Shown here one piece after another: positions 25,437-58,472 of a DNA stretch of 64,000 nucleotides. Each line of letters starts with the position of its first letter. Within the stretch, counting starts at the first letter, position 1. The translations under genes were made by a program, and so were the position numbers. The stretch lies in NCBI GenBank assembly GCA_000146465.1, contig CP001949.1; one strand, 5' to 3'. The notes beneath the pieces are model-generated. The model worked only from the letters and a program-made list of their open reading frames with translations. It had not been told where the DNA came from and ran no database searches.

Positions 25437-25509
25437 GTGACCTTAGTGTAGTGGTTATCACGTTCGTCTAACACGCGGAAGGTCCCCAGTTCGAGCCTGG
25501 GAGGTCGCA
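25437..25509 (+). tRNA. tRNA-Val (anticodon AAC)
   Basis: 73-nt cloverleaf: 7-bp acceptor gtgacct/aggtcgc, T-arm cccag-ttcgagc-ctggg, anticodon AAC at 25470-25472; near-identical architecture to metazoan tRNA-Val-AAC; followed by TTTTT. Confidence 0.85.
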
Positions 25510-25557: not shown

Positions 25558-25641
25558 TCTCCCAAGCTGGAGTCGAACCAGCGGCCATTCGATAACGGCA
25601 TACTTCTACAGTCGAATGCTCTACCACTGAGCTATTGGGAG
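25558..25641 (-). tRNA. tRNA-Tyr (anticodon GTA) with a 12-nt intron at the canonical 37/38 position (intron 25594..25605)
   Basis: Acceptor ctcccaa/ttgggag, D-arm gctc-agtggta-gagc, anticodon stem ttcga/tcgaa, loop CUGUAG|A, T-arm gctgg-ttcgact-ccagc; 84 nt = 72 + 12. Confidence 0.85.
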
Positions 25642-25742: not shown

Positions 25743-26117
25743 TCACAGCTCTCGAATGTTCTTCGACTTGAATGGCGATCGAGGAAATGAGGAAAATAAA
25801 AGATCCATCTCGGTTTCATCCTCTTGGGATGCTCTGTTCATTTCTTGTGCCGGAGGCTTTGTCTTCTCTGTGATCTCTCTCAGCGCTGTGTATCTCTTCC
25901 TCTGCTTTACCTTGGTAGGTGTAAACTCCTTGATGTGTGGATTGTAGTTCTCCTTCTCAGGTAGGTTGTCAAACCCTGCACCATCTGGTCTTTCACATCT
26001 CATGTTAGGGATTCCTCCTATTGTCCAATAAGTCCATTTTGGAGGGAAGATTCCAAGACCTTGCAAAATAACAGCATTCAAAGCCCTAAGAAGAGTACAG
26101 AATTTATTGTTACACAT
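25743..26117 (-). CDS. 124-aa ORF immediately downstream of the multi-exon membrane gene; either a 4th exon (via the non-consensus 28-nt intron GTAACA...CTTCTTAG at 26086..26113) or a separate small gene
   Basis: Frame can be reached from exon 3 only through a non-consensus intron; it has its own ATG at 26117. Confidence 0.25.
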   Translation of the reverse strand: MCNNKFCTLLRALNAVILQGLGIFPPKWTYWTIGGIPNMRCERPDGAGFDNLPEKENYNPHIKEFTPTKVKQRKRYTALREITEKTKPPAQEMNRASQEDETEMDLLFSSFPRSPFKSKNIREL

Positions 26118-27087
26118 CCGGAATGCCCTTGTCCCTCTTTACCTTCAGTACATTCCGCTCTTTCCCTGCGGGGTAAAACAACTCCTTTAGCCCAGATCCG
26201 AAGTACCTGTAGTCCAAGACCGAGTAATACAGAAAAATCAGGTTTATAACTGCCTCGAAGTTATTCCTTATGATGAAGAGCCTAAAATTAAAAATGCTCA
26301 CTTACCTCCTCAGATGCCAATCCAGAGCGTCACTGTTCCTATGTCTCGAAACCTGGGATGTACAGTACGAAAGATTCAAGGCTGTTGCCATGATTAGAGA
26401 CATCCTTTGGCCCTCATTTTCTTCATTAGGCCTCATGAACATTAAGAAAAAGGTGATAACCTCGAGAATATGGTCAAGCACCATCAAGAAAGCCTCTAAA
26501 GAGTTTACAGTGTAGTATTTGATCCCCTCGATCTGAAGATATATCCCCTGGATGGCTGCTAGGATCATTAGAAACTTCGATGCATCGTACCGGGCCCTTG
26601 CTTTGTATGCAGCTTAAAATTATATGTGTCACTTACCTTTCAGCTTGCTGCTAACACCCCCCTGCTTAAAATAGTACCATTCAAACATGTCTCCATATTC
26701 CTTGCATACGAAGTACATCCTAATAAACTCTCCAACGCATAGTCCTAAATACAAAAGGGAAAAAGCCACAACTCCCAGGTTGTGATTGGTAAACTTGAAA
26801 ACGCTTTCCACAATCACAGATGCCTCCAGAGAAGCTATGAGAATGATAACCCAGTATGCCTTGCACTGCTCAAGGTTTTTTCTCGACATTGCATTTTCAA
26901 GATAGATAAACATGTAGACGTTTGTAACACATATGGACAGACACATCGATCGGATTATGACCATTTGCTTACCGATAATGTTTTTCCGGTAAAATCCAAT
27001 TCCGATGACTAATATCCTCAAAAGCAAGTACATAAACGAAACCTTCCTCCCTTTGTTCAACAGTTCGTCCTTCCCCAACAAGTCCAT
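26110..27087 (-). CDS. Multi-pass membrane protein encoded by at least 3 exons (27087..26637, 26612..26306, 26281..26110), tentatively TLC/TRAM-LAG1-like; a possible 4th exon is 25743..26085
   Basis: Three consecutive minus-strand track ORFs in different frames join exactly when two 24-nt introns (GTAAGTGACACATATAATTTTAAG, GTAAGTGAGCATTTTTAATTTTAG) are removed; phases match and the continuous frame is hydrophobic; the ATG at 27087 is preceded by GACCCATTGA. Confidence 0.55.
26282..26305 (-). other. Spliceosomal intron, 24 nt, GTAAGTGA...TAATTTTAG
   Basis: Removal joins exon frames (phase 2) without a stop. Confidence 0.65.
26613..26636 (-). other. Spliceosomal intron, 24 nt, GTAAGTGA...AATTTTAAG
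   Basis: Removal joins exon frames (phase 1) without a stop. Confidence 0.65.
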
Positions 27088-29972: not shown

Positions 29973-30242
29973 ATGTATCTCCACATGAAGCTAAGATGCG
30001 GCAAGATCTCAACAGGAAACACTGCAATGATGTGCGATAAATGCTCGGGAAAATGCTATGCATGCGGCCTGGACACCAGAGAGTCCGTGGAAAAGGTCTA
30101 CATTTGCACCCCGTGCTTCCATTCCACGTACAAAGACAGATGCATCGTTTGCAAGCTTAAGGACCCGAGAAACAATGCATACTATTGCAGGGAATGCAAG
30201 CTCCAGAAAAACCACGACAGATGCCCTGTCCTCGCCCAATAA
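29973..30242 (+). CDS. PHF5A: PHF5A/Rds3 (SF3b splicing factor, zinc-knot protein)
   Basis: Cys pattern C.KC.GKC..C...(C)...C..C......RC..C......AYYC.EC......D.CP matches PHF5A; the exact N-terminus is uncertain (ATG at 29973 or 29985). Confidence 0.75.
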   Translation: MYLHMKLRCGKISTGNTAMMCDKCSGKCYACGLDTRESVEKVYICTPCFHSTYKDRCIVCKLKDPRNNAYYCRECKLQKNHDRCPVLAQ

Positions 30243-35911: not shown

Positions 35912-36876
35912 ATGGAGAAGAATCAGGCCGAGCCAGAAAAGAACATAAGTTACACAAAACTTGCATTTTTCTTTTTCGTAATAAGAACAGTAGTAATAGG
36001 TCTGGCCTTACTATCGGGACCATACTTTGCACTAGATGACGAAACAACAACATTCAAGATGTTTATAATTTTCTTGGACATAACAAACATATTACAGTTT
36101 ATATTTCAATGGGACATAATTCAGCGTAAGATTCTATTTCAATATCTTCTATATATTCCTGTCCTTGCTTACTCTCTGACTCTTACAATCACGTTAATAG
36201 TTGATGCACACAATACTAACAGTTGTAACTTCAAAGTAGAAGGTAAAATTAAGAAATTAGCTATTGGATATATCTATACATATATGGGAATTCTTCTTGG
36301 GGAAGTTGCTCTCCTTCCAATCATATACAGAAGACTCAAGAGTGACTTTATGTGGGCAAACTTCAAAAAGCTAGGAGCTAACACAGCTATTAATGGTAAG
36401 TGGAGATAAGTAATTTTAGATGCCTTCGGGAGGAGAGAACAGTTTAGTGCAATAAGAAGATTTATGTTGATTTTTCTGTGTGGAGAAGTTGCAAGTTTCA
36501 ATATAAGCATAAGAGATAACAAAGATGTCTTCTTTTTTGTAGCAGGGACACAGATATTTGTGATTTTCCTTTCTTTTATATTTTTCAACGAAGAATATGT
36601 ACATCAGAGAAGGTTTCTTCTGGGATTTTCCGGACTGTGTACATTAGGAGGAATAGCATACACTGTGATTTATATTGTTATGGCTAGTAGGAGTAGCGAA
36701 ATAAGAAAGTAAGTGAAGATGTTAATTTTAGAGGAGTTATTTCCGAAATTGTATTCTATACAATTACAATGCTTATTTTCTTTGTTGGAGCCTTTAGGGA
36801 TTATCAGACATTTGGGAAGGGACTAAAAGATTATTATAGTGGAAGTCTTGGAATAAGAAAAAAACTCACACCTTAG
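35912..36876 (+). CDS. Multi-pass membrane protein encoded by 3 exons (35912..36395, 36420..36708, 36732..36876), 305 aa
   Basis: Two track ORFs plus an unlisted 3' frame join precisely after removing introns GTAAGTGGAGATAAGTAATTTTAG (24 nt) and GTAAGTGAAGATGTTAATTTTAG (23 nt); total CDS is 918 nt in frame and ends at TAG 36874-36876. Confidence 0.55.
36396..36419 (+). other. Spliceosomal intron, 24 nt
   Basis: GTAAGTGG...TAATTTTAG; phase 1; restores the frame. Confidence 0.65.
36709..36731 (+). other. Spliceosomal intron, 23 nt
   Basis: GTAAGTGA...TAATTTTAG; phase 2; restores the frame. Confidence 0.65.
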
Positions 36877-36894: not shown

Positions 36895-37298
36895 CCACGA
36901 GACAATAAAAACCAAAGACTTTATTTCTCTTGGGGACTCCCCGCATACACCGTCATCCGGCTGTTCCCCAACACCTTCTCAATCACCCCCTCAGACGCTA
37001 GGTGCCGCAACACATTCTCCGCAACCCCGAGGTTCAGATTGTACTTGCTCCCAACACCATACCGCGTCACAACACTCGCTCGGCACACATCCTTGCGCAC
37101 CTTCGACAGGAGCTCCTCGGTCACCGTCACTCCCCTGCGCACTTCCTCCTTCTTCTTTCCGTCGCTCCACTTCTTCTTGTCCTTCCTTGTTCCAGACATG
37201 GCCTTGAGTGCCTTCTTCTCCTTCGACTCCTGGATCTTCTTGGCCATTTGTGGGAGTCCAATTTTCCCACTTCAAATCCCATCCCAGAAACTCCCAAA
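36895..37298. repeat. Left arm of a ~404-bp perfect inverted repeat (partner 38722..39126) containing the entire RPS25 gene plus its 5' CCC motif and 3' flank
   Basis: Reverse complement of 38722..39126 matches base for base where checked (boundaries and the first ~120 nt of the CDS); all three overlapping frame translations are identical between the copies. Confidence 0.8.
36921..37247 (-). CDS. RPS25: Ribosomal protein eS25 (RPS25), copy 1 (inside the left arm of the inverted repeat)
   Basis: 108 aa with an eS25 signature (KKKWS.GK.K......V..TEEL..K...D.....V.T...V.....N......L..L...G). Confidence 0.85.
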   Translation of the reverse strand: MAKKIQESKEKKALKAMSGTRKDKKKWSDGKKKEEVRRGVTVTEELLSKVRKDVCRASVVTRYGVGSKYNLNLGVAENVLRHLASEGVIEKVLGNSRMTVYAGSPQEK

Positions 37299-37365
37299 GA
37301 AGCCCATAGCCTCCGAATGCCAGGAGTGGATTTCTGGATTGGAAAAATTTGCCCTCAATCTAAAG

Positions 37366-37812
37366 ATGGCAAAGATGCATTCTAGCGGAAGAGGACGCTC
37401 GGGGAGCGTTAAGCCGTATGCAACAGTGTTTCCAACATGGCTGACAAAGACGGCTGATGAAATTAAGGCCGATGTTATCCAGATGGGAAACAAGGGGATT
37501 CCTGCACCTGATATAGGGAAAAAGCTAAGAGACGAATATGGAGTCGGAAATGCCAAGGACGTCCTGGGGTGTGAAATCACAAAGTTCCTTGAAGAGAATG
37601 GGGCATCTCCAAAGATCCCATTTGATCTTGAGTCTCTGGTTCGCCGAGCGAACACCCTCCGAAGTCACTTGAACATCTATAGGAAAGACAACTCTGCAAA
37701 ATACAGACTTATCCTTGTTTCATCCCGGATGTATCGTGTTGCAAGGTACTACAAGCGCAAGATGAGGATTCCAGGGAACTGGAAGCCAAAGCTTGTTGAG
37801 CTCATTAAATGA
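37366..37812 (+). CDS. RPS13: Ribosomal protein uS15 (RPS13)
   Basis: MAKMHSSGRG...PTWL...KKG..PS.IG..LRD..GV...YRKD...KYRLIL.ESR..R.ARYYK; the ATG is preceded by GCCCTCAATC. Confidence 0.9.
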   Translation: MAKMHSSGRGRSGSVKPYATVFPTWLTKTADEIKADVIQMGNKGIPAPDIGKKLRDEYGVGNAKDVLGCEITKFLEENGASPKIPFDLESLVRRANTLRSHLNIYRKDNSAKYRLILVSSRMYRVARYYKRKMRIPGNWKPKLVELIK

Positions 37813-37930
37813 TCTTCTTGAAGTCTCGAACTGGCTGTTTCAAGGCCACCTCTGTGTGTTTTTGACGTCTTTCCAACAGGCGATTTTATTTGCGAAGAGA
37901 GGTATATTTTGTGAAAAACAAACCCCGTGA

Positions 37931-38626
37931 ATGTATGAGGAGCTCTTGAACTTTCTGCTGGCGAGGAAGAAGAGGCTGCTGTCTGAGGAAGAGGCCGATA
38001 GACTTATGGAGCTTATTACCCAGTCGATGGAAGCCAGAGAGGGCCGGGAAGGGAAAGAGGACAATACAGCATTGATAAGGAAGATCCTCGAAAATGTGGA
38101 TATGGACCAAGCTTACGAAACAGACACTGAGAGCATGGAAAATGCTATGGAAGATTTGCTTTTTGATGGCTACAGCAGCGAAATTTACAGCAACGATACT
38201 ATAGACTTGAGCGAGTCTGACAACGACACAGAGCCTCTGTCTGAGCGGAAGTTCCAGAGAGGAGAGTTTAGAGCTGGAGTGAAGGCTTCTGAGAATGAAG
38301 AGGAGCCGAAGAGGAGGATTGGGCTCAAAGACAAAGCAAAAGAAGGGGAATGGAAGGATCTGTCGGGAGGGAAGGATAACGATCTCCAACCACCAAAGGA
38401 TAGCACAGGAGTTCTGTCGGAGGATGGGGAAGGCCCCAAGAGAAGGGAATTCAAGCTCCCTGGATTTAGTAAGGAGAAGAAGGAGAGATCATTTGAGATG
38501 AGGGATGGCGGGGACTTTAACTTGCCAGGGTCTGTGGAATTTGAGTTTGATCTCGGAGAACTAAAGAAGGTGAATAATACCGGGCCGAATGTGAAGTTTT
38601 TCGACGAGGATGGAGAAGAGATCTGA
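37931..38626 (+). CDS. Acidic Glu/Asp-rich hypothetical protein (231 aa)
   Basis: ATG preceded by AAACCCCGTGA; lies between the repeat arms. Confidence 0.4.
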   Translation: MYEELLNFLLARKKRLLSEEEADRLMELITQSMEAREGREGKEDNTALIRKILENVDMDQAYETDTESMENAMEDLLFDGYSSEIYSNDTIDLSESDNDTEPLSERKFQRGEFRAGVKASENEEEPKRRIGLKDKAKEGEWKDLSGGKDNDLQPPKDSTGVLSEDGEGPKRREFKLPGFSKEKKERSFEMRDGGDFNLPGSVEFEFDLGELKKVNNTGPNVKFFDEDGEEI

Positions 38627-38721
38627 AAGTCTTTGGTTTTGAATGTAGAGTAATAGTGACTGTTTTATGGATGAATTATCTTTATTAAAGTAGCAAGTTC
38701 TCTCAATGATTGTGTTTTTTC

Positions 38722-39126
38722 TTTTGGGAGTTTCTGGGATGGGATTTGAAGTGGGAAAATTGGACTCCCACAAATGGCCAAGAAGATCCAGGAGTCGAAG
38801 GAGAAGAAGGCACTCAAGGCCATGTCTGGAACAAGGAAGGACAAGAAGAAGTGGAGCGACGGAAAGAAGAAGGAGGAAGTGCGCAGGGGAGTGACGGTGA
38901 CCGAGGAGCTCCTGTCGAAGGTGCGCAAGGATGTGTGCCGAGCGAGTGTTGTGACGCGGTATGGTGTTGGGAGCAAGTACAATCTGAACCTCGGGGTTGC
39001 GGAGAATGTGTTGCGGCACCTAGCGTCTGAGGGGGTGATTGAGAAGGTGTTGGGGAACAGCCGGATGACGGTGTATGCGGGGAGTCCCCAAGAGAAATAA
39101 AGTCTTTGGTTTTTATTGTCTCGTGG
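38722..39126. repeat. Right arm of the inverted repeat (partner 36895..37298)
   Basis: See the left arm. Confidence 0.8.
38774..39100 (+). CDS. RPS25: Ribosomal protein eS25 (RPS25), copy 2
   Basis: Identical translation to copy 1. Confidence 0.85.
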   Translation: MAKKIQESKEKKALKAMSGTRKDKKKWSDGKKKEEVRRGVTVTEELLSKVRKDVCRASVVTRYGVGSKYNLNLGVAENVLRHLASEGVIEKVLGNSRMTVYAGSPQEK

Positions 39127-54808: not shown

Positions 54809-55525
54809 ATGTACTACGACGTGAATATTAGTCTGGATTATCCAAAGCAAGATATCGAGGAGCTGGAGAAAAGTGAATACGAAGGGTTTTGTGTGAATAA
54901 GACTATGAGGCCCAAGGACCTCGAAAGACTTTCCCATGGATCTCTTGAGTTTCCTGGGGCAAAGCGTTACTACAACCGTGCGGAGATTGTATTTGGAGAG
55001 GGAGAGCAGATTGGATACGACTTTAGAAAAGCAATGAGATATGATCTGTTTGTTGTGAAGCTGAGCGGGACAGAGGGAATGGATAAGATAATAAAACATC
55101 AGCCAGATATGATTACATTTGACTATGGTGGAAAAGTCCTTCCATTTAAGCCCGGACTTGTCAAGACGGCAATCAGGGAAGGCATATTCTTTGAGATACC
55201 GATGAGAGAGGGCTTGAGAGGAGGGTCTTTAACCATCATGTGGATCCGGAATGTACGGAGACTGCTGTTTATTACAAATGGGAAGAACATTGTAGTTAGC
55301 AGTGGGGCCCAATGCTCCATGGAGATTAAGAAAGTCAGAGATGTTGTTAAGATGCTTGAGATGTTTGGACTTGGGGAGAAAAGAGCACTGGAAGTGATGC
55401 TCAACTCGGAGAGGCTTTTAAAGAGGTGTGCAATGAAAAGGCATTGCTACAGAGACTCGATTGTGCACAGTGTGGATGAAGGGGCCCTAAAAAGGGACTT
55501 TGTACTGTCTCTGTACAAAAATTGA
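54809..55525 (+). CDS. RNase P/MRP protein subunit Rpp30 (Rpp1, PHP/TIM-barrel)
   Basis: Aligns with Rpp30 end to end: MYYDVNISL (MAVFADLDL), GF.VN, MITFDY, GIFFEI, GKNIVVSSGAQ..MEI....DVVKMLEMFGL.EKRALEVM (GKNVIISSAAERPLEIRGPYDVANLGLLFGLSESDAKAAV); the ATG is preceded by TTACCCTG. Confidence 0.7.
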   Translation: MYYDVNISLDYPKQDIEELEKSEYEGFCVNKTMRPKDLERLSHGSLEFPGAKRYYNRAEIVFGEGEQIGYDFRKAMRYDLFVVKLSGTEGMDKIIKHQPDMITFDYGGKVLPFKPGLVKTAIREGIFFEIPMREGLRGGSLTIMWIRNVRRLLFITNGKNIVVSSGAQCSMEIKKVRDVVKMLEMFGLGEKRALEVMLNSERLLKRCAMKRHCYRDSIVHSVDEGALKRDFVLSLYKN

Positions 55526-55589: not shown

Positions 55590-56243
55590 ATGTTCTTTGA
55601 TGTAAATGTAAGTAACAGATGCCCAAGAGGGGATCTGGATGTTTTAAAGGAGCTTGGATGGGATGGAATCTGCATAAACACTGTTGTTGGCTTGGACAAC
55701 CTGGAAGGATGGAGCAGTCCCCTTCTTGATGTGTGGAAGGACGAGAAGGCCTATGAGAGGATAGAGGTAAGATACAAGGATAATGAGAAGTGGAGTGAAG
55801 TTAGAAAGATGGTGAATCCTGATGTGCTTTCGGTGAGAATAGAAGGGGTTGAAGACTTTAAGAAAGCTCTCGAGGTTTCTCCAGACGTGATTACATTTGA
55901 TTATTCCAGGAGCTTCTGTCTCGGAAAGGACGAAGTTTTTGAAGCTGTGAAGAGAAATATATTTCTTGAGATTCCATTGGTGTGTGGGATGTATGGCCAG
56001 AGAAACAAAGTTGTATGGATGAGAAATGCCAGAAAACTTGTGGAGATCACGGGGGGAGTGAATGTTGTGGTTGGGAGCGGGGCGTCATGTTGTACAGAGA
56101 TGAGAAGTTCCCATGACATTATAAAGATATTGGGAGGACTTGGAACGAGTGGAGACTGTGGAAGGAAGATACTGCAGAACTCTGGGAGGCTGATCAGGTC
56201 CTGCAGAATAAGAAAAGGATGTGTTATGAAGGAAGAGATATGA
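55590..56243 (+). CDS. Divergent Rpp30-like paralogue, tandem to 54809..55525
   Basis: Shares MFFDVNVS, VITFDY, NIFLEIP, GVNVVVGSGASC.TEMRS..DIIKILGGLG with its neighbour. Confidence 0.55.
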   Translation: MFFDVNVSNRCPRGDLDVLKELGWDGICINTVVGLDNLEGWSSPLLDVWKDEKAYERIEVRYKDNEKWSEVRKMVNPDVLSVRIEGVEDFKKALEVSPDVITFDYSRSFCLGKDEVFEAVKRNIFLEIPLVCGMYGQRNKVVWMRNARKLVEITGGVNVVVGSGASCCTEMRSSHDIIKILGGLGTSGDCGRKILQNSGRLIRSCRIRKGCVMKEEI

Positions 56244-58196: not shown

Positions 58197-58472
58197 ATGG
58201 AGTTGCGATATAGATTGTAAGTGGAAGCAACTAATTTTAGGGTTTTTGGCAGAAAGGGTGTTCTGATCGAAGACCGAGCTCTGAAGGAGTTTGTGAGCGG
58301 GCTTATCCGGGGCTTTGGGGGCCTTGATTTGCTGAGCAGAGTTAGTGTAAGATGTGATGGAGGAGTGATCAATATCTCGGCGGACAAAGAGGCTTCTAGC
58401 ATTGTGCATGGATCTCTATTTCTCTGCGGAGAGTATAAGTCTGTTGGATGTAGATTTGAGCGAATCGATTAA
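58197..58472 (+). CDS. Small two-exon gene (exons 58197..58216 and 58241..58472), 83 aa, probable ribosomal protein eL38 with a short N-terminal extension
   Basis: A 20-nt first exon (ATGGAGTTGCGATATAGATT) followed by the consensus 24-nt intron GTAAGTGGAAGCAACTAATTTTAG joins in phase to the track ORF, whose apparent start is a GTG inside the intron; VSVRC...ADKEASSIVHGSL parallels eL38 VKFKVRC...DKEKAEKLKQSL. Confidence 0.45.
58217..58240 (+). other. Spliceosomal intron, 24 nt
   Basis: GTAAGTGG...TAATTTTAG. Confidence 0.6.

What the first reader, a model, noticed from the sequence alone, without database searches (positions are those of the whole stretch)
36396..36419. Uniform 23-24-nt spliceosomal introns with a near-invariant GTAAGTG...TAATTTTAG
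Five introns in three genes share the same architecture:
- 26613-26636 and 26282-26305 on the minus strand
- 36396-36419, 36709-36731 and 58217-58240 on the plus strand
Each has 5' GTAAGTG(A/G), an 8-10-nt variable core, and 3' TAATTTTAG (once TAATTTTAAG). Removing each one fuses adjacent ORFs in phase with no stop. The likely branch adenosine sits only about 6-8 nt from the 3' AG. This degree of length and sequence constraint is characteristic of highly reduced spliceosomes. The PHF5A (SF3b) gene at 29973 is consistent with a retained spliceosome. Phase-0 copies of the motif contain no in-frame stop and could therefore be hidden inside long ORFs.
Basis: partly seen in the sequence, partly recalled or inferred. 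Interest (0 to 1): 0.65.

Follow-up and report, generated by a model that had tools for sequence, protein, structure and literature searches.

The report
Known ultra-short microsporidian spliceosomal introns
The five 23-24-base segments are very probably genuine miniature introns of the parasite Encephalitozoon intestinalis, a class described since 2001 in which a stripped-down splicing machinery accepts only introns with nearly fixed ends and length, so the finding is correct but ordinary.

Summary
GTAAGTG-N7-12-TAATTTTA occurs 5 times in the window against 0.00 expected from 100 shuffles, and relaxed scans find no credible further copy. The window is Encephalitozoon intestinalis (microsporidia). 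Removing the segments gives a 309-aa protein (gene A), a 305-aa protein (gene B) and an 83-aa protein (gene C). All three are conserved in E. cuniculi, E. hellem and/or E. romaleae.

The comparative evidence for splicing is strong:
- All five introns sit at the same codon and phase in every relative examined (28 copies).
- Their lengths drift by single bases (20-25 nt), while exon indels are multiples of 3.
- The intron ends are about 81-94% invariant, the cores are free, and the exons show codon periodicity.

Genes A and B are old paralogues (21% identity) that share both intron positions and phases. These introns also occur in Ordospora and in three unnamed lineages. PHF5A is confirmed. No snRNA gene lies in the window.

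This is the published Encephalitozoon intron class: GTAAGT, branch motif CTAAYTT, 22-76 nt, 36 introns per genome, spliced in E. cuniculi RNA-seq. Useful by-products are missed or mis-set introns in several deposited annotations.

The parts
26637..27087 (-). Gene A exon 1 (451 nt; orphan ~300-aa helical membrane protein, orthologue of E. cuniculi ECU08_0950)
   Evidence: Spliced translation gives 309 aa. It is 59% identical over 98% of its length to ECU08_0950, and 58% identical to E. hellem KMI_01g01590.
26613..26636 (-). Intron A1, 24 nt, phase 1, GTAAGTGACACATATAATTTTAAG (3' end TTTTAAG)
   Evidence: It sits at the same position in E. cuniculi (25 nt), E. hellem (23 nt), SRR23946965 (24 nt) and SRR21633403 (23 nt). 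If retained, it reads GK then a stop.
26306..26612 (-). Gene A exon 2 (307 nt)
26282..26305 (-). Intron A2, 24 nt, phase 2, GTAAGTGAGCATTTTTAATTTTAG
   Evidence: The orthologous copies are 23-25 nt. The split codon R253 aligns with K258 of gene B.
26110..26281 (-). Gene A exon 3 (172 nt including the stop)
35912..36395 (+). Gene B exon 1 (484 nt; paralogue of gene A; the E. cuniculi orthologue is a 305-aa hypothetical protein, P0001)
   Evidence: Spliced translation gives 305 aa. It is 69% identical over 99% of its length to P0001. The A/B comparison by BLASTP gives 2e-11 and 21% identity.
36396..36419 (+). Intron B1, 24 nt, phase 1, GTAAGTGGAGATAAGTAATTTTAG (the coordinates of the finding)
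   Evidence: The orthologous copies are 24, 25 and 25 nt in Encephalitozoon, 25 nt in Ordospora, and 22 and 20 nt in unnamed lineages. The split codon D162 aligns with A151 of gene A.
36420..36708 (+). Gene B exon 2 (289 nt)
36709..36731 (+). Intron B2, 23 nt, phase 2, GTAAGTGAAGATGTTAATTTTAG
   Evidence: It is 23 nt in all four Encephalitozoon taxa, one of which has GTAGGT.
36732..36876 (+). Gene B exon 3 (145 nt including the stop)
58197..58216 (+). Gene C exon 1 (20 nt, ATGGAGTTGCGATATAGATT)
   Evidence: Read directly from the sequence. Exon 1 is 20 nt in E. romaleae and E. hellem too.
58217..58240 (+). Intron C, 24 nt, phase 2, GTAAGTGGAAGCAACTAATTTTAG, of the 5'-biased type with a full CTAAT branch motif
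   Evidence: It is 23 nt in E. romaleae and in two E. hellem strains.
58241..58472 (+). Gene C exon 2 (232 nt including the stop; the product is 83 aa of unknown function)
   Evidence: The spliced product is identical to the deposited E. intestinalis protein P7C66_08s3g13240 (P0008). It is 69% identical to EROM_081240 and 65% identical to E. hellem KMI_01g01900.
29973..30242 (+). PHF5A/Rds3-like gene (an SF3b component), 89 aa. It supports the presence of a spliceosome but is not part of the introns.
   Evidence: Pfam PF03660, 53.6 bits against a cut-off of 26.7, E 2.8e-14. The syntenic PHF5 gene is called in E. cuniculi, E. hellem and E. intestinalis.

Best explanation
These are five ordinary members of the known class of ultra-short U2-type (GT-AG) spliceosomal introns of Encephalitozoon, here in E. 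intestinalis.

Almost every base of each intron is a splicing signal:
- Positions 1-6 (GTAAGT) pair with the ACUUAC at the 5' end of U1 snRNA (and later with U6).
- TAAT, at intron positions ~15-19, is the core of the branch site (published consensus CTAAYTT). Its second A is taken as the branch nucleotide.
- The 3-4 T that follow are a vestigial pyrimidine tract.
- The first AG after the branch is the 3' splice site.

Because the 5' site and the branch site nearly abut, only 6-7 nt are free to vary and the length is held at 23-25 nt in the genus. Failure to splice gives a premature stop in all five cases.

Shown here:
- the sequence signals;
- restoration of the reading frame;
- conservation of position and phase across species and across paralogues;
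- non-coding substitution and indel patterns.

Inferred from the literature, not shown here:
- actual excision in E. intestinalis RNA;
- which A is the branch point;
- the snRNA pairings;
- low splicing efficiency.
For: (1) Motif frequency: 5 matches against 0.00 expected.
(2) Removal gives full-length proteins of 309, 305 and 83 aa. The unspliced reading stops inside or at each segment.
(3) The organism is E. intestinalis. A 931-aa window protein is identical to one on JBLUPK010000019, which is ATCC 50603.
(4) There are 20 orthologous copies in E. cuniculi, E. hellem, E. romaleae and an unnamed Encephalitozoon-like contig, all at identical positions. Lengths are 23 (8 copies), 24 (8) and 25 (4) nt. 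The branch A is followed by 5-7 nt.
(5) Every internal 1-nt gap within the coding sequence lies inside an intron, while exon gaps are 3, 3 and 9 nt (two gaps of 1 and 6 nt in the gene C alignment fall at or upstream of the start codon). Exon third positions are invariant in 21-41% of columns, against 52-76% for first and second positions. The intron 5' 8 nt are 81-88% invariant, the 3' 9 nt 89-94%, and the cores 19-57%.
(6) Splicing at the motif-defined borders gives 302-311-aa ORFs in all four taxa for both A and B.
(7) Both A/B introns are also present, in phases 1 and 2, in Ordospora colligata and three unnamed lineages. They yield 276-306-aa proteins. In addition, 11 ORF-called exon-1 fragments in a 1.84-billion-protein library end with the xGT-ARG read-through signature GK/GR/SK.
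(8) In 28 of 28 copies the first AG after TAAY is the 3' splice site.
(9) Literature:
- The E. cuniculi branch consensus is CTAAYTT, and TAAYTT is present in all 13 introns examined (PMC2483917).
- E. cuniculi has 37 introns of 22-76 nt with strict motifs, and RNA-seq confirmed that all previously annotated ones are spliced (PMC3629993).
- Each Encephalitozoon species, including E. intestinalis, has 36 introns of 23-76 bp (PMC4313915).
- U1 snRNA with ACUUACC occurs in all four species (PMC5499648).
(10) The E. cuniculi GB-M1 record annotates both orthologues as spliced genes of 311 and 305 aa.
(11) PHF5A lies in the window.
Against: - No RNA evidence for E. intestinalis could be examined here.
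- Published splicing of the short E. cuniculi introns is inefficient (below 20% on average; PMC6349667), so most transcripts may stay unspliced.
- I could not confirm from a held table that these particular orthologues (ECU08_0950 and the gene B orthologue) were among the introns verified by RNA-seq. Only their expression is on record (ECU08_0950 at FPKM 82-189).
- The A/B introns have weak branch motifs ([G/T]TAAT rather than CTAAT).
- No snRNA gene lies in the window, so the pairing could not be tested on this genome's own RNAs.
Confidence: 0.95

Rival explanations
1. The segments are disabling insertions or frameshifts, so genes A, B and C are pseudogenes or separate short genes. This is how several deposited annotations treat them.
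For: The 2025 E. intestinalis drafts call gene B as separate 165-aa and 82-aa ORFs, and gene A as 152 + 88 aa or 249 aa. Logan and JGI gene calls for relatives are likewise fragments.
Against: All exons stay open, show codon periodicity and are conserved across at least 8 taxa. Every interrupting segment keeps GTAAGT...TAAY...AG and a length of 20-25 nt, and 1-nt indels are confined to the segments. Pseudogenes would not preserve this. The fragment calls come from prokaryote-style gene finders that cannot model introns.
Confidence: 0.01
2. The segments are copies of a recently mobile, introner-like element that inserted at five sites, which would explain their similarity.
For: The five copies share 16-17 of 23-24 bases.
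Against: The shared bases are exactly the splice signals, and the 6-7-nt cores are unrelated between loci. Each copy is at an orthologous position in several species and genera. The two positions are shared by paralogues that are only 21% identical. The insertions would therefore predate the genus. No extra copies occur elsewhere in the window.
Confidence: 0.02
3. The segments stay in the mRNA and are skipped or tolerated during translation (ribosomal bypassing, frameshifting or stop read-through) rather than being spliced.
For: Published splicing levels of short E. cuniculi introns are low (PMC6349667).
Against: GT-AG borders, a branch motif and U1 complementarity are spliceosomal signals, not recoding signals. 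Spliced reads were reported for all previously annotated E. cuniculi introns (PMC3629993). Lengths of 23 or 25 nt plus in-frame stops would require a different recoding event at each site.
Confidence: 0.01
4. They are true introns, but they are kept because inefficient splicing serves a purpose: it throttles or times expression of these genes through premature-stop transcripts. On this view they are not merely introns that escaped loss.
For: - The A/B introns have persisted at the same two sites since before the A/B duplication, in lineages with 17-56% GC, while more distant homologues are contiguous ORFs.
- All five give a stop when retained.
- The A/B branch motifs are weaker than the published CTAAYTT consensus.
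- Splicing differences between time points, and between introns of one gene, are reported in E. cuniculi (PMC3629993).
Against: Persistence may simply reflect a lack of reverse-transcriptase-mediated loss. There are no expression data for these genes in E. intestinalis. No regulatory splicing factors are known in Encephalitozoon (PMC3629993).
Confidence: 0.2

Closest known systems
Short spliceosomal introns of Encephalitozoon cuniculi and its congeners (Katinka 2001; Lee et al. 2010; Irimia & Roy 2008, PMC2483917; Grisdale 2013, PMC3629993; Pombert 2015, PMC4313915)
   Same: GT-AG borders, GTAAGT 5' site, TAAYTT branch motif next to the 3' AG, and a length of about 23-25 nt. They occur both at the 5' end of genes (gene C) and internally in non-ribosomal genes (A, B). 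The E. cuniculi orthologues of A and B are annotated with the same two introns.
   Different: Nothing essential differs; these are the E. intestinalis orthologues. Details I did not find stated in the papers I could read:
- G at +7 is invariant in all 20 Encephalitozoon copies but is T in 5 of 8 copies outside the genus.
- A and B share both intron positions and phases.
- Copies of 20-22 nt occur in unnamed relatives.
Long microsporidian intron family in the poly(A)-binding-protein and S23 genes (Whelan et al. 2018, PMC6349667)
   Same: Same organisms, same spliceosome, GT-AG borders, and a conserved 5' site and branch site.
   Different: Those introns are about 76 nt long, have a hyper-extended branch/U2 pairing and an internal conserved stem-loop, and are spliced at about 80%. 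The introns here are 23-24 nt with a minimal branch motif and no room for internal structure.
Introns of intron-poor yeasts such as S. cerevisiae (GTATGT ... TACTAAC ... AG)
   Same: Intron paucity goes with near-invariant 5' site and branch site signals, the general pattern described in PMC2483917. The first AG after the branch is used.
   Different: From established knowledge, yeast introns are far longer, with branch-to-3' distances usually of 10 nt or more. Here the branch A lies 17-19 nt from the 5' end and 5-7 nt from the 3' end.
Other miniature introns: chlorarachniophyte nucleomorphs and Paramecium (cited in PMC3629993 and PMC2483917)
   Same: A narrow distribution of very short lengths.
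   Different: Those lineages have many introns, weak 5' sites (GT(A)) and no recognisable branch motif (PMC2483917). The Encephalitozoon introns are few and carry strong signals.

Membership tests
Encephalitozoon-type ultra-short U2-dependent spliceosomal introns | GT...AG borders | tested here: met
   5 of 5 in the window and 28 of 28 across relatives.
Encephalitozoon-type ultra-short U2-dependent spliceosomal introns | 5' splice site GTAAGT, complementary to the U1 snRNA ACUUAC(C) | tested here: met
   GTAAGT in 5 of 5 in the window and 27 of 28 overall, with one GTAGGT. The U1 sequence motif is taken from PMC5499648. This genome's own U1 gene is not in the window, so the pairing itself is inferred.
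Encephalitozoon-type ultra-short U2-dependent spliceosomal introns | Branch motif TAAYTT (consensus CTAAYTT) a few bases upstream of the 3' AG | tested here: met
   TAATTT in 5 of 5 in the window, with the full CTAATTT only in intron C. The branch A is followed by 6-7 nt. The published consensus is in PMC2483917.
Encephalitozoon-type ultra-short U2-dependent spliceosomal introns | Length within the published range (22-76 nt; short class about 23-30 nt) | tested here: met
   23-24 nt in the window and 23-25 nt in the genus. Published ranges are in PMC3629993 and PMC4313915.
Encephalitozoon-type ultra-short U2-dependent spliceosomal introns | Removal restores a conserved ORF; position and phase are conserved in orthologues; evolution is non-coding | tested here: met
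Encephalitozoon-type ultra-short U2-dependent spliceosomal introns | Excision demonstrated in RNA (spliced reads or RT-PCR) | not testable with these tools
   No E. intestinalis transcript data were reachable. No contig or protein with the spliced A or B sequence of E. intestinalis was found in the protein collection. For E. cuniculi, RNA-seq confirmed all previously annotated introns (PMC3629993).
Encephalitozoon-type ultra-short U2-dependent spliceosomal introns | The host genome encodes a spliceosome | tested here: met
   PHF5A (SF3b) lies in the window. A complete snRNA set is reported for the genus (PMC5499648). No snRNA gene lies in this window.
Long microsporidian intron family (Whelan 2018) | Length of about 76 nt, an internal conserved region with a stem-loop, and a hyper-extended branch site | tested here: not met
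   The introns here are 23-24 nt with 6-7 nt cores. The family is described in PMC6349667.
U12-type (minor spliceosome) introns | 5' site (A/G)TATCCTT and branch TCCTTAAC (from established knowledge) | tested here: not met
   The 5' site is GTAAGTG in all copies.
Introner-like mobile introns | Many near-identical copies, including their interiors, at non-orthologous sites, with presence/absence variation | tested here: not met
   The cores are unrelated, the positions are orthologous across genera and paralogues, and no further copies occur.

The most novel reading that the evidence does not exclude
The two introns of the A/B membrane-protein family are unusually old and persistent. They predate the A/B duplication (21% identity). 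They survive at the same codon and phase in Encephalitozoon, Ordospora and three unnamed lineages whose loci span 17-56% GC. In one lineage they shrink to a predicted 20 nt, below the 22-23 nt lower bound published for microsporidia, while more distant homologues are intronless. This could mean that they are kept for a function (splicing-limited expression of this family). It could also mean that about 20 nt, with GTAAGT and the branch site almost abutting, is the working floor of a U1/U2-dependent spliceosome. That would imply that U1 and U2 cannot occupy such an intron side by side.
Probability: 0.15. Interest if true: 0.45.

Novelty: already known. Interest (0 to 1): 0.2.

Why it matters
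As biology, this re-finds a textbook feature of the smallest eukaryotic genomes. It confirms that a sequence-only reader can recognise it.

The practical value lies in annotation:
- Deposited E. intestinalis draft records split gene B, and partly gene A, into fragments.
- E. hellem records carry a mis-set intron 2 in gene B, which gives a frameshifted C-terminus.
- The Ordospora colligata record calls only the exon-1 read-through.

The motif GTAAGT-N(8-14)-TAAY-N(3-6)-AG, combined with a frame test, would correct all of these.

The conservation of two intron positions across paralogues and genera gives a small, clean data set on intron persistence and minimal intron length in reduced spliceosomes.

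Tried and rejected
- Hidden or extra introns. Both are judged chance matches. The six other GTAAGT sites lie inside long ORFs or on antisense strands and have no branch motif.
- snRNA genes in the window. Rfam found none at gathering thresholds or at E<=1; it found only two tRNAs. I could therefore not test whether the invariant G at +7 pairs with this genome's U1.
- U1 sequence from the literature. PMC5499648 has no supplementary text held.
- Lee et al. 2010 (PMC3809491), the paper most likely to list these very introns, is not held. Searches for the locus tags found nothing.
- Spliced E. intestinalis A or B products in the protein collection. None were found, so no indirect transcript evidence is available.

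Full report
**Observation**

A strict regular expression finds only these five on both strands. The pattern GTAAGTG-N{7,12}-TAATTTTA gives 5 matches, against a mean of 0.00 and a maximum of 0 in 100 dinucleotide-preserving shuffles. All four copies of TAATTTTAG in the window, and 5 of the 7 copies of GTAAGTG, belong to them.

Removing the two minus-strand segments gives a 309-aa ORF (gene A: 27087..26637, 26612..26306, 26281..26110). Removing the first two plus-strand segments gives a 305-aa ORF (gene B: 35912..36395, 36420..36708, 36732..36876). Unspliced, both ORFs stop within or at the segments.

The fifth segment does not join the neighbouring large ORFs. It joins a 20-nt first exon (58197-58216) to 58241-58472, giving an 83-aa protein. 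That protein is identical to a deposited E. intestinalis protein.

**Organism**

A 931-aa ORF of the window is identical to a protein on GCA_051312795.1 contig JBLUPK010000019. JBLUPK is Encephalitozoon intestinalis ATCC 50603 (PMC12697097). Gene density and synteny with E. cuniculi chromosome VIII (AL590448) agree with this.

**Comparative test of splicing**

I fetched the orthologous DNA from the following sources:
- E. cuniculi (L002).
- E. hellem (L003, L006, L007).
- E. romaleae (L005).
- An unnamed Encephalitozoon-like assembly (L004).

All five introns are present at the same place in every taxon, giving 20 copies in total. Lengths are 23 nt (8 copies), 24 nt (8) and 25 nt (4). The putative branch A (the second A of TAAYT) lies at intron position 17-19 and is followed by 5-7 nt.

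The pattern of change is non-coding in the introns and coding in the exons:
- Every internal single-base gap within the coding sequence falls inside an intron. Exon gaps are 3, 3 and 9 nt. Two further gaps of 1 and 6 nt in the gene C alignment fall at or upstream of the start codon.
- Exon columns show codon periodicity. Third positions are invariant in 21-41% of columns, against 52-76% for first and second positions.
- The first 8 intron bases are 81-88% invariant, the last 9 are 89-94% invariant, and the cores are 19-57% invariant.

Splicing at the motif-defined borders gives ORFs of 302-311 aa for A and B in all four taxa. Length changes of one base inside an otherwise in-frame, conserved gene are compatible only with removal before translation.

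**Age of the A/B introns**

Genes A and B are paralogues (BLASTP 2e-11, 21% identity).
- Intron 1 splits codon D162 of B and codon A151 of A. Intron 2 splits K258 of B and R253 of A.
- Both pairs of codons are aligned residues, and they share phases 1 and 2 respectively.
- Both introns therefore predate the duplication.

A profile search of 1.84 billion representative proteins found 39 relatives.
- Eleven are exon-1-only ORF fragments. They end just after the intron-1 site with GK, GR or SK, the translation of xGT-ARG.
- Others cover only exon 2 or only exon 3.
- The only named fragment is from Ordospora colligata.

DNA for four of these relatives shows both introns in phases 1 and 2, at 20-25 nt:
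- L011, O. colligata.
- L012, unnamed, 41% GC.
- L013, unnamed, 17% GC.
- L014, unnamed, 56% GC.

All four splice to proteins of 276-306 aa.

Thirteen more distant homologues are contiguous ORFs from prokaryote-style gene calls, and so are presumably intronless. For the Logan and JGI contigs, the calling method is my inference. One of them was checked on L015.

Over all 28 copies, GTAAGT occurs 27 times. Position +7 is G in 20 of 20 Encephalitozoon copies but T in 5 of 8 copies outside the genus. The first AG after TAAY is always the 3' splice site.

**Mechanism**

The signals match the published ones.
- Irimia and Roy gave CTAAYTT as the E. cuniculi branch consensus, with TAAYTT in all 13 introns, and a strong (GT)AAGT donor (PMC2483917).
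- Belkorchia et al. found U1 snRNA with a human-like ACUUACC 5' end in all four Encephalitozoon species and concluded that the snRNA set is complete (PMC5499648).

The anatomy is therefore a U1/U6 site (positions 1-6, perhaps to 8), a 6-7-nt spacer, a branch core TAAT, a 3-4-nt T tract and AG. That about 70% of each intron is signal explains both the near-identity of unrelated introns and the fixed length. The pairings and the identity of the branch nucleotide are inferred, not shown here.

Intron C carries the full CTAAT motif. The A/B introns have [G/T/A]TAAT, which pairs less well with U2. This fits the published low average splicing of short E. cuniculi introns (below 20%; PMC6349667), but it is not evidence for it.

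Retention yields a premature stop in all five cases.

**Spliceosome**

The ORF at 29973-30242 is a PHF5A/Rds3 homologue (PF03660, 53.6 bits). It is syntenic in E. cuniculi and E. hellem. No snRNA gene is in the window.

**What is known**

- The class was described with the E. cuniculi genome, which reported 16 introns.
- Lee et al. 2010 extended it to 34-36 introns. Many of the new ones are internal and lie in non-ribosomal genes.
- RNA-seq confirmed it (PMC3629993).
- Pombert et al. list 36 introns of 23-76 bp for E. intestinalis itself and 30 for Ordospora (PMC4313915).
- The E. cuniculi GB-M1 record annotates the A and B orthologues as spliced genes of 311 and 305 aa.

The finding is therefore correct and already known. 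I could not read Lee et al. 2010 to check whether the shared A/B intron positions or the +7 G are mentioned there.

**Host genes**

- A and B belong to an orphan family with no Pfam match.
- A confident AlphaFold model shows nine helices (pLDDT 82, pTM 0.80).
- It has no specific structural relative in the PDB.
- Gene C is an 83-aa protein of unknown function, conserved in the genus.

**Verdict**

- Observation: confirmed.
- Interpretation: supported.
- Novelty: already known.
- Interest: low (0.2).

The residual points of interest are the annotation errors, the age and persistence of the A/B introns, and the predicted 20-nt introns in an unnamed, extremely AT-rich relative.

Noticed in passing
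window 36895-37298 and 38723-39126 (with 37299-38722 between them): A perfect 404-bp inverted repeat (100% identity). Each arm carries an RPS25 gene copy. The 1.4-kb segment between the arms holds the RPS13/S15 gene and a 231-aa ORF, and it is inverted relative to E. cuniculi GB-M1. The 2025 E. intestinalis draft contigs end about 600 bp after gene B, that is, at this repeat.
   Followed up: partly
L003 255-1195 (-), and proteins P0002-P0004 (E. hellem gene B models): The deposited E. hellem models (296-300 aa) end in a non-conserved tail, VYPRGN... Using the 23-nt motif-defined intron 2 instead gives a 305-aa protein with the conserved C-terminus ...RDYQTFGKGLKNYY.... The intron border in the deposited annotation appears to be mis-set by 2 nt.
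   Followed up: yes
L008/L009 (E. intestinalis JBLUPL and JBLUPK drafts), equivalent to window 26110-27087 and 35912-36876: Gene B is annotated as separate 165-aa and 82-aa ORFs. Gene A is annotated as 152 + 88 aa or as 249 aa, so these introns were missed or only partly modelled. Gene C is annotated correctly as spliced. The Ordospora colligata record likewise calls only a 197-aa exon-1 read-through, OCOL_001728.
   Followed up: yes
L013 1943-1962 and 2258-2277 (Logan SRR25018382, locus GC 17%): Two predicted introns of only 20 nt (GTAAGTTAATTAACAATTAG and GTAAGTTATATTTTAATTAG) lie at the conserved A/B-family positions in an unnamed, extremely AT-rich eukaryote. This is shorter than the 22-23 nt lower bound published for microsporidia. 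There is no RNA evidence.
   Followed up: partly
L013, about 2367-2369: In the same gene, an in-frame TGA sits where the family has the invariant Gly of FG-x-GLKE (the sequence reads F N K TGA L K E K). It could be a sequencing error, a truncation or pseudogene, or a reassigned TGA. This is a single case.
   Followed up: no
window 54809-55525 (+) and 55590-56243 (+): Two adjacent genes both match RNase P subunit p30 (PF01876), forming a tandem pair. The pair is conserved in E. romaleae and E. hellem.
   Followed up: no
window 25437-25509 (+) and 25558-25641 (-): tRNA-Val(AAC) and tRNA-Leu(TAG) are convergent and 48 bp apart, a few hundred bases downstream of gene A. The tRNA-Val was missed at the Rfam gathering setting although it scores 53 bits.
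   Followed up: no
window 26110-27087 (-), 35912-36876 (+), and alignment A5: The A/B family is an orphan family of ~300-aa, nine-helix membrane proteins. Its conserved motifs are FKK-GA---IN-AF-TR, N-EN--QRK and DY--FGSGLKEY. It has no Pfam family and no specific PDB fold match despite a confident model. Intron 1 falls between helices 4 and 5, that is, between the two halves of the protein.
   Followed up: partly
L004 (Logan SRR23946965, 101-kb contig): An Encephalitozoon-like genome that is syntenic with the window. Its gene B product is 73% identical to that of E. intestinalis and differs from E. cuniculi and E. hellem. The species is not identified; it could be E. romaleae or another taxon.
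   Followed up: no
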